Below, piece after piece: positions 2,561 to 3,186 of a DNA stretch of 14,511 nt. The notes under the pieces were generated by a model that did no database searches, was not told where the DNA came from, and saw nothing but the letters and a program-made list of their open reading frames with translations. Made by a program: the position numbers and the translations under genes. The stretch spans positions 1 to 14,511 of IMG/VR virus record IMGVR_UViG_2579778535_000016; one strand, given 5' to 3'. This stretch comes from a virus (lineage: Duplodnaviria; Heunggongvirae; Uroviricota; Caudoviricetes). How positions within the stretch are numbered: position 1 is the stretch's first letter; the number at the start of each line of letters is the position of its first letter.

Positions 2561-3186
2561 TCAATGAATCCATTCCTCGCCGCGCAGTTTTGCCAGCATT
2601 GGCTGAGCGTTCTTTACGACAAAATTGTTGGTATCAAGATTCTTCATTTCACGAAGAAGTGATTTCTTGGTTTCTTCTGACATGTAGCGAGTCTCATATG
2701 CAATATCGTAAATCCTTCCTGAAAGCTCAGAACCAATTTGCTTCATTCCTGGGTAGATGTGTTTGCACATTTGTTGACTCTTCTCCATCCACAATTGTAA
2801 GTAGCAGAGATTAACCAGCTCTTCGTCAGTAAACTGTTTTGCAATCGGTGAGCATTCTGCCTGCCGATCCAAAATATCCAGCACCCAGCGGCGGAACTCT
2901 TTAGCTACATCGGTACGTGCGAAAATGGCGATCAGATGCGCCCCACGAAGCGAGAAGACACGCATTTTTTTCGGTAATTCCCTGAGGTCACTGATTCAAT
3001 GACCTGAGTCATTCCTTCAGAAAACTCATCACTATTTTGATTAAATAAGTTAGTAATGGACTTGGTGCTTTTGTACTTCATCGCCGAGGCCAAGTCTGCG
3101 GAAGTGAACCAAACACCTTCCAGATTAGCGACTGGAGAAAGCTGAACACCTTTGAAGTTGTACACTGATTTCGCTATAATATTCAT
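2561..3186 (-). pseudogene. Bro-N domain antirepressor-like protein split by a -1 frameshift at a 7-nt homopolymer tract
   Basis: Upstream frame (MNIIAKSVYNFKGVQLSPVANLEGVWFTSADLA...SGNYRKK) and downstream frame (MRVFSLRGAHLIAIFARTDVAKEFRRWVLDILD...) together make a Bro-N-like domain. The frames meet at T7 (plus 2965..2971; A7 on the coding strand); an A8 tract would give a continuous ...NYRKKMRVFSL... ORF. The start at 3186 is tentative. Confidence 0.6.

What the first reader, a model, noticed from the sequence alone, without database searches (positions are those of the whole stretch)
2934..2972. Bro-N gene split at a 7-nt homopolymer tract: a slippage-prone on/off switch or a decay lesion
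The two halves of the Bro-N domain lie in frames offset by one base and meet at plus-strand T7 (2965..2971), which is A7 on the coding strand. One extra A would give a continuous ...NYRKKMRVFSL... ORF. Homopolymer tracts of this length are hotspots for replication slippage and for transcriptional or ribosomal slippage, so a full-length product could be made at low frequency.
Basis: seen in the sequence. Interest (0 to 1): 0.5.

Follow-up and report, generated by a model that had tools for sequence, protein, structure and literature searches.

The report
Frameshifted antirepressor pseudogene in decaying prophage
A phage antirepressor gene in an E. coli prophage is broken by a one-base frameshift at a run of seven A's; every public copy of this prophage carries the same break, so it is an ordinary fixed gene-inactivating lesion and shows no sign of being a switch.

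Summary
On the minus strand an ant-type antirepressor gene (Bro-N + P22_AR_C, 208 aa when repaired) is split after codon 74 at an A7 tract (window 2965-2971). The downstream part is in the -1 frame, and one extra A, or a -1 ribosomal slip on the in-register heptamer A_AAA_AAA, gives ...NYRKKMRVFSL.... It is not an assembly error: 16 assemblies from independent projects carry the identical A7. Six of these (not counting GCA_022410025.1, already sampled) were found through the neighbouring arc gene, so they were not selected for the tract. No restored (A8) allele was found in them or in a 15-billion-protein collection. All 59 homologous sites in viral contigs are in frame, mostly with A5-A6. Every carrier also has an amber stop in the next antirepressor-like gene. 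The window's prophage has in addition lost about 7.1 kb of head genes and about 6.2 kb of tail genes. There is no downstream stimulatory RNA structure (z = +1.5). A hexanucleotide repeat 1 kb away varies freely among the same genomes, while the A7 never does. Verdict: a fixed decay lesion in the immI-like ("ant moron") region, a known phenomenon. Low-level leaky read-through is physically plausible but unsupported. Interest is low.

The parts
2965..2971 (-). A7 tract at the frame break. In the 0-frame it reads cgA AAA AAA, i.e. the heptamer A_AAA_AAA.
   Evidence: Identical in all carrier loci L003-L012 and L014-L020.
2932..3186 (-). N-terminal fragment of the ant pseudogene: 74 authentic codons, then 10 out-of-frame codons (CVSSRFVGRI) and TGA.
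   Evidence: Bro-N scores only 17.6 bits, below the cut-off.
2561..2965 (-). C-terminal fragment in the -1 frame (134 aa from the junction ATG). It holds the last third of Bro-N plus the P22_AR_C domain.
   Evidence: About 99.7% DNA identity to intact E. coli 55989 ant over the aligned C-terminal region, about 330 nt, the 3' four-fifths of this fragment.
3187..3256 (+). sar-like antisense RNA candidate covering the ant leader and ribosome-binding site.
   Evidence: Rfam RF00262, full-length match at 21.1 bits, below the gathering score of 43. A promoter-like site TTGAAG-17-TATAAT at 3152-3180(+) ends just upstream.
3260..3433 (-). arc-like ribbon-helix-helix repressor gene (57 aa), intact, first gene of the arc-ant operon.
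   Evidence: Weak Pfam Arc/HicB match, below threshold. The exact protein occurs on 46 contigs. A Pant-like promoter lies at 3501-3474(-).
3544..3921 (+). mnt-like Arc-family repressor gene (125 aa), intact and divergent from arc.
   Evidence: Pfam Arc, 72 bits. The exact protein occurs on 47 contigs.
1744..2472 (-). Second antirepressor-like gene (phrog_1726; 242 aa in intact homologs), cut at codon 148 by CAG->TAG (stop at 2029-2031).
   Evidence: TAG is present in all 16 carrier loci that reach this site. E. coli 55989 has CAG.

Best explanation
This is a fixed, inactivating one-base frameshift in the ant (antirepressor) gene of the immI-like mnt-arc-sar-ant module of a lambdoid siphovirus prophage. 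The prophage is integrated next to intS in E. coli. The lesion cuts the Bro-N domain inside a beta-strand, so normal translation yields a truncated 84-aa peptide. It arose once in the phage lineage, before the later deletions, and has been inherited unchanged. It may have arisen by A8->A7 slippage or by loss of the base flanking an A7 run. Loss of the antirepressor is tolerated because ant is an accessory gene, and it probably makes lysogeny more stable. Shown: the break, its fixation, the second lesion, the prophage decay, and the in-frame state of homologs. Inferred: the loss of function and its neutrality or benefit.
For: The frame break and split domain are shown. In an AlphaFold2 model of an intact relative (N domain pLDDT 85-93) the break after residue 74 falls within strand 71-79. 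The same A7 is present in 10 loci found through the fragment protein and in 7 loci found through arc, which were not conditioned on the tract. NCBI-annotated assemblies have no protein called between arc and humD. The repaired 208-, 218- and 236-aa proteins, in both M and V versions, are absent from the 15-billion-protein collection. The closest intact protein is 97% identical and from Salmonella. All 59 IMG/VR homologous sites have an in-frame 8-nt spacer. An amber stop in the adjacent gene is present in all carrier loci that reach the site. The window equals the complete prophage minus a 7,116-bp head deletion and a roughly 6.2-kb tail deletion. A complete genome retains only a roughly 9-kb remnant (L015). 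Degraded ant genes in 'ant morons' of HK620 and Scho1, and loss of immI in phage L, are described in PMC2629481 and PMC8022706.
Against: The tract is a perfect, in-register -1 slippery heptamer, and a junction ATG exists, so some full-length or C-terminal product cannot be excluded. The lesion is also present in apparently complete prophages (GCA_022410025.1, GCA_018160195.1), so it is not merely a by-product of a dead element. The carriers are nearly identical (0-1 SNP over 2.8 kb), so there is no power to test relaxed selection on the fragments.
Confidence: 0.85

Rival explanations
1. Leaky recoding ('savior indel'). The frameshift lowers Ant to a trickle. A -1 ribosomal slip on A_AAA_AAA, or RNA polymerase adding an A, makes a small amount of authentic 208-aa Ant, and that low level is what selection keeps.
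For: The heptamer is in register and a -1 slip reproduces the A8 product exactly. A_AA.A_AA.A is listed among motifs with more than 0.10% frameshifting without stimulators in E. coli and is common in IS elements (PMC4066793). C-AAA-AAA gave 25-60% frameshifting under overexpression (PMC1851650). A conceptual precedent is the HSV thymidine kinase G-run (PMC5009743). The allele persists in complete-looking prophages.
Against: There is no downstream stimulatory structure: the fold is weaker than shuffled sequences, z = +1.5. The upstream AGGGAA is part of the conserved S-G-N codons, which also occur (as TCAGGG or TCAGGA) in intact homologs. The frameshift is not conserved in any other family member, 59/59 in frame. 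The neighbouring gene is also knocked out, which points to decay. An antirepressor that works by binding the repressor would be expected to do little at about 0.1-1% of normal level; this last point rests on my own knowledge of P22 Ant.
Confidence: 0.07
2. Heritable phase-variable switch. The tract flips between A7 (off) and A8 (on) by replication slippage, giving subpopulations with and without antirepressor.
For: Homopolymers are known slippage sites. One Logan contig encodes an A6 version of the N fragment (P0139), so length change, or a read error, does occur.
Against: None of the 16 assemblies read has A8, and no repaired protein is in the collection. The single variant goes the wrong way (A6). 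In the same genomes a (CAGAGG)n repeat 1 kb away takes seven different lengths, while the A7 here and an A9 in the acyltransferase gene never vary.
Confidence: 0.04
3. Split gene. The two ORFs are expressed as separate functional polypeptides, for example a stand-alone P22_AR_C protein started at the junction ATG 2965.
For: An ATG sits exactly at the junction, and the C fragment keeps a full P22_AR_C domain (51.9 bits).
Against: I see no convincing Shine-Dalgarno sequence at a suitable distance from the ATG (my reading). The N-fragment stop lies 31 nt downstream of that ATG, so coupling is poor. The cut is inside a beta-strand of the N domain, not at a linker. Homologs of this ant type are single ORFs.
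Confidence: 0.03
4. Sequencing or assembly error in this one genome, with the real tract being A8.
For: Homopolymers are error-prone on some sequencing platforms.
Against: The identical A7 appears in assemblies from many independent projects across NCBI, ENA and Logan.
Confidence: 0.01

Closest known systems
Phage P22 immI region (mnt, arc, sar, ant) and the 'ant moron' of P22-like phages
   Same: Divergent mnt and arc-ant units with overlapping promoter-like sites. A sar-like antisense candidate lies over the ant leader. The antirepressor carries the P22_AR_C domain. The region lies in the late operon near the tailspike and conversion genes. Degraded ant genes are already described in HK620 and Scho1 (PMC2629481).
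   Different: The N domain is Bro-N rather than the P22 Ant N domain. The host phage is a long-tailed lambdoid with a tape-measure protein, not a podovirus. The sar match is below Rfam's threshold.
Programmed -1 frameshift sites of dnaX and IS1/IS3 elements (A_AAA_AAG / A_AAA_AAA)
   Same: The same kind of slippery heptamer, in register, in E. coli (PMC4066793).
   Different: There is no stimulatory stem-loop or pseudoknot and no conservation of the two-frame arrangement in relatives. The 0-frame product has no evident function.
'Savior indel' with compensatory frameshifting (herpes simplex thymidine kinase G-run)
   Same: A one-base indel in a homopolymer inside a gene, with possible low-level read-through (PMC5009743).
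   Different: There is no evidence here that the residual product matters.
Defective prophage ST64B (frameshift in a tail assembly gene)
   Same: A single frameshift lesion fixed in a Salmonella prophage lineage and conserved between strains (PMC7067206).
   Different: That lesion hits an essential structural gene. Here the target is an accessory regulator.

Membership tests
Ant-type antirepressor (Bro-N + P22_AR_C; PHROG 245/5060 'anti-repressor Ant') | Bro-N domain at the N terminus | tested here: met
   Repaired protein: PF02498, 39.3 bits (cut-off 25.6), residues 24-105. As encoded, neither fragment passes.
Ant-type antirepressor (Bro-N + P22_AR_C; PHROG 245/5060 'anti-repressor Ant') | P22_AR_C domain at the C terminus | tested here: met
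   PF10548, 50.7 bits (cut-off 22.4), residues 117-184. phrog_245 E = 5e-51.
Ant-type antirepressor (Bro-N + P22_AR_C; PHROG 245/5060 'anti-repressor Ant') | Single uninterrupted ORF of about 208 aa | tested here: not met
   Frame break after codon 74. The 120 best homologs listed are 203-243 aa long and cover 95-100% of the query, and 59/59 IMG/VR sites are in frame.
Ant-type antirepressor (Bro-N + P22_AR_C; PHROG 245/5060 'anti-repressor Ant') | Binds and inactivates the prophage repressor | not testable with these tools
   Needs genetics or biochemistry.
P22 immI-type module | Divergent mnt and arc-ant genes encoding ribbon-helix-helix repressors | tested here: met
   Mnt-like: Arc domain, 72 bits. 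Arc-like: weak, 17.5 bits, but annotated as Arc family in syntenic homologs.
P22 immI-type module | sar antisense RNA over the ant ribosome-binding site | tested here: inconclusive
   RF00262 full-length match at 21.1 bits against a gathering score of 43, with a promoter-like site correctly placed.
Programmed -1 ribosomal frameshift site | X_XXY_YYZ heptamer in the 0 frame at the overlap | tested here: met
   A_AAA_AAA; the simulated slip gives the full-length protein.
Programmed -1 ribosomal frameshift site | Downstream stimulatory structure or a correctly spaced upstream SD-like element | tested here: not met
   The 65-95 nt downstream fold less well than shuffled sequences, z +1.5. AGGGAA lies 6 nt upstream; the roughly 10-nt dnaX spacing I compare it with is from my own knowledge.
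Programmed -1 ribosomal frameshift site | The two-frame arrangement is conserved among relatives | tested here: not met
   59/59 IMG/VR sites are in frame, and so are the 120 best protein homologs.
Phase-variable contingency locus (homopolymer switch) | Tract length polymorphism between on and off states among close relatives | tested here: not met
   A7 in all 17 loci read, no A8 anywhere, and one A6 contig.

The most novel reading that the evidence does not exclude
The A7 lesion is a selected attenuator rather than plain decay. The in-register A_AAA_AAA heptamer lets about 0.1-1% of ribosomes, or slipped transcripts, make authentic Ant. The phage would then keep a heavily throttled antirepressor. 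This would explain why the allele persists unchanged in complete-looking prophages with different early regions.
Probability: 0.05. Interest if true: 0.4.

Novelty: already known. Interest (0 to 1): 0.1.

Why it matters
It matters little beyond correct annotation. The gene should be called a pseudogene, and NCBI-annotated assemblies already carry no protein there. The case is a useful caution. A homopolymer at a frame break, even one that forms a perfect slippery heptamer, is not evidence of a switch unless relatives conserve the arrangement or the tract varies. If the leaky-recoding reading were true, it would be a small example of tuning a prophage induction factor by frameshifting.

Tried and rejected
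1. Exact and degenerate DNA patterns across the tract found nothing in genome contigs, viral contigs or metagenome contigs. The allele is absent from those collections, so no closer intact relative was obtained that way.
2. A second protein search with the N-terminal 119 residues returned nothing above 86% identity and missed the known 97% Salmonella relative. It is therefore not an exhaustive test for partial intact copies.
4. The Rfam gathering-threshold scan found nothing. Only a sub-threshold sar match appeared in the E-value scan.
5. The PDB sequence search and the Foldseek PDB search of the model gave no significant match, so no solved Bro-N/Ant structure could be used.
6. dN/dS on the fragments was not attempted because the carriers differ by 0-1 SNP.
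7. The ancestral state could not be resolved. Candidates are CGA AAA AAA GTG (attested in L028) followed by loss of G, or CGN AAA AAA ATG. The ATG with identical downstream DNA is attested in Citrobacter L027, though there after AAA AAG. That second route would need loss of N or a change from A8 to A7.

Full report
**What is in the sequence**

On the minus strand the window carries an antirepressor gene of the ant type. Read from ATG 3186, the 0-frame runs ...GGG AAT TAC CGA AAA AAA TGC GTG... and stops at TGA 2934-2932. That gives 74 authentic residues plus 10 out-of-frame ones. Homology continues in the -1 frame from ATG 2965 to the stop at 2563-2561, a 134-aa ORF.

Adding one A gives a 208-aa protein. 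A simulated -1 slip after the second AAA gives exactly the same protein. The repaired protein has Bro-N (residues 24-105, 39.3 bits) and P22_AR_C (117-184, 50.7 bits). Neither fragment alone passes the Bro-N threshold. PHROGs call it anti-repressor Ant. In an AlphaFold2 model of an intact relative, the N domain has pLDDT 85-93 and the break after residue 74 lies inside beta-strand 71-79. The cut is therefore within a folded domain, not at a linker.

RefSeq homologs start at the position that gives 208 aa. An A7 run as such is not unusual in this window: the pattern matches at 5 positions (3 separate tracts) against 5.0 expected.

**Context**

The gene is the last member of an immI-like module:
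- a mnt-like repressor at 3544-3921(+);
- an arc-like repressor at 3260-3433(-);
- a Pant-like promoter at 3501-3474(-);
- a sub-threshold but full-length match to P22 sar antisense RNA at 3187-3256(+), with a promoter-like site ending just upstream.

The flanking genes are an O-antigen-type acyltransferase, an SGNH tailspike, a HumD (UmuD'-like) gene and the IntS integrase. The window matches E. coli assembly GCA_000503395.1.

**Is it an error, and does the tract vary?**

The two fragment proteins occur on about 20 contigs from NCBI, ENA and Logan. Ten loci fetched through the N fragment all carry A7. Those were selected for the tract by construction. I therefore also fetched seven loci through the neighbouring arc protein, which is independent of the tract. 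All seven carry A7. In the NCBI-annotated ones no protein is called between arc and humD.

Repaired proteins of 208, 218 and 236 aa, with M or V at the junction, are absent from the 15-billion-sequence collection. The closest intact protein is 97% identical and from Salmonella. One Logan contig encodes an A6 version (P0139). That is the wrong direction for restoring the frame, and I could not inspect the contig.

Within the same loci a (CAGAGG)n repeat at 3922-3972 takes seven different lengths. The A7 here and an A9 tract in the acyltransferase gene never change. Assembly error is therefore excluded, and a consensus-level on/off switch is not seen.

**Is it a conserved recoding site?**

No. 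The 120 best protein homologs are 203-243 aa long and cover 95-100% of the query. In IMG/VR all 59 sites matching the flanks have the in-frame 8-nt spacer. Of these, 44 have an A6 run, 14 have A5 or shorter, and one has A7 in the form CGA AAA AAA GTG.

The 65-95 nt downstream of the tract fold less well than shuffled sequences (z about +1.5). The upstream AGGGAA is part of the S-G-N codons, which also occur in intact relatives.

The heptamer itself is shift-prone. Sharma et al. list A_AA.A_AA.A among motifs with more than 0.10% frameshifting without stimulators (PMC4066793). Belfield et al. saw 25-60% at C-AAA-AAA under overexpression (PMC1851650). A trickle of full-length protein is therefore plausible, but nothing indicates selection for it.

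**Signs of decay**

The gene immediately downstream (phrog_1726 anti-repressor, 242 aa in E. coli 55989) carries CAG->TAG at codon 148, with the stop at 2029-2031. This holds in every carrier locus that reaches the site.

The window is 100% identical to complete-looking prophages in GCA_018160195.1 and GCA_022410025.1, apart from two deletions:
- a 7,116-bp deletion removing most of the portal gene through the tail terminator (junction 9667/9668);
- a deletion of about 6.2 kb fusing the tape-measure N terminus to the C terminus of a tail protein (junction 7729-7734).

A complete 4.93-Mb genome keeps only about 9 kb of the element (L015).

Among carriers, region 1160-3950 differs by 0-1 SNP. 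The int alleles differ at up to 45 positions, and host flanks differ by 0-8 SNPs over 3-7 kb. The two complete prophages have different early regions. The ant lesion therefore predates the deletions and has travelled with the late/immI block.

**How the lesion arose**

This is unresolved. L028 has an intact CGA AAA AAA GTG, and loss of the G yields the window sequence exactly. Citrobacter L027 has AAG ATG followed by downstream DNA identical to the window. An M-type ancestor that lost the base before the run, or went from A8 to A7, is therefore equally possible.

**Comparison with what is known**

Villafane et al. describe the 'ant moron' as the most fluid part of the late operon and note degraded ant genes in HK620 and Scho1 (PMC2629481). 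Phage L lacks ant and arc altogether (PMC8022706). Frameshift lesions fixed in prophages are familiar, as in ST64B (PMC7067206). The 'savior indel' idea of Atkins et al. (PMC5009743) is the nearest framework for a functional leaky reading.

**Verdict**

The best explanation, at about 0.85, is a fixed inactivating frameshift in an accessory antirepressor gene of a decaying prophage lineage. The rivals are leaky recoding (about 0.07), a phase switch (about 0.04), a split gene (about 0.03) and sequencing error (about 0.01). The finding is ordinary and of a kind already described.

Noticed in passing
window 2029-2031 (gene 1744-2472, minus strand): The gene after ant (phrog_1726 'anti-repressor', 242 aa in intact homologs) is cut by a CAG->TAG amber at codon 148. 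Homology continues in frame after the stop. It is present in all carrier loci that reach the site. The exact Q148 version exists on two short ENA contigs (P0194).
   Followed up: yes
window 3922-3972: A perfect hexanucleotide tandem repeat (CAGAGG) x 8.5 lies between the mnt stop and the start of the acyltransferase gene. Among 15 carrier loci the mnt-acyltransferase spacing takes seven values, differing in 6-bp steps over a 60-bp range. It is a truly hypervariable tract just upstream of a likely O-antigen-modifying gene and might tune its expression.
   Followed up: partly
window 4994-5002: An A9 run lies inside the 3' end of the acyltransferase ORF (codons KKK). Its length is invariant in all 14 loci that include it.
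   Followed up: partly
window 1232-1621 (minus strand), with a palindrome at 1639-1658: A HumD-type gene encodes a UmuD'-like protein of 129 aa. It starts at the equivalent of the UmuD cleavage site, so it is 'pre-activated'. It is preceded by a LexA-box-like sequence, TACTGTACATAAATACAGTA. No umuC partner lies next to it.
   Followed up: partly
window 9529-10149 and 7340-7942 (minus strand): There are two recent deletions relative to otherwise 100% identical complete prophages. One of 7,116 bp leaves a 206-aa portal stub (junction 9667/9668). One of about 6.2 kb creates a 200-aa fusion of the tape-measure N terminus with a tail-protein C terminus (junction 7729-7734, with 6 bp shared).
   Followed up: yes
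window 3187-3256 (+), promoter-like site at 3152-3180 (+): A sub-threshold but end-to-end match to P22 sar antisense RNA (21 bits against a gathering score of 43) lies opposite the ant leader, with a 10/12 sigma-70-like promoter placed to start it.
   Followed up: partly
window 57-1098 (intS): Carriers of the identical immI block have integrase alleles that differ at up to 45 positions. The next 2.8 kb is identical, which suggests recombination within int, perhaps with resident intS copies.
   Followed up: partly
protein P0139 (Logan contig of 1,317 bp; not in the window): One public assembly encodes the N fragment with an A6 tract (...NYRKNACLLAS...). This is either a real further slippage or a read error.
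   Followed up: no
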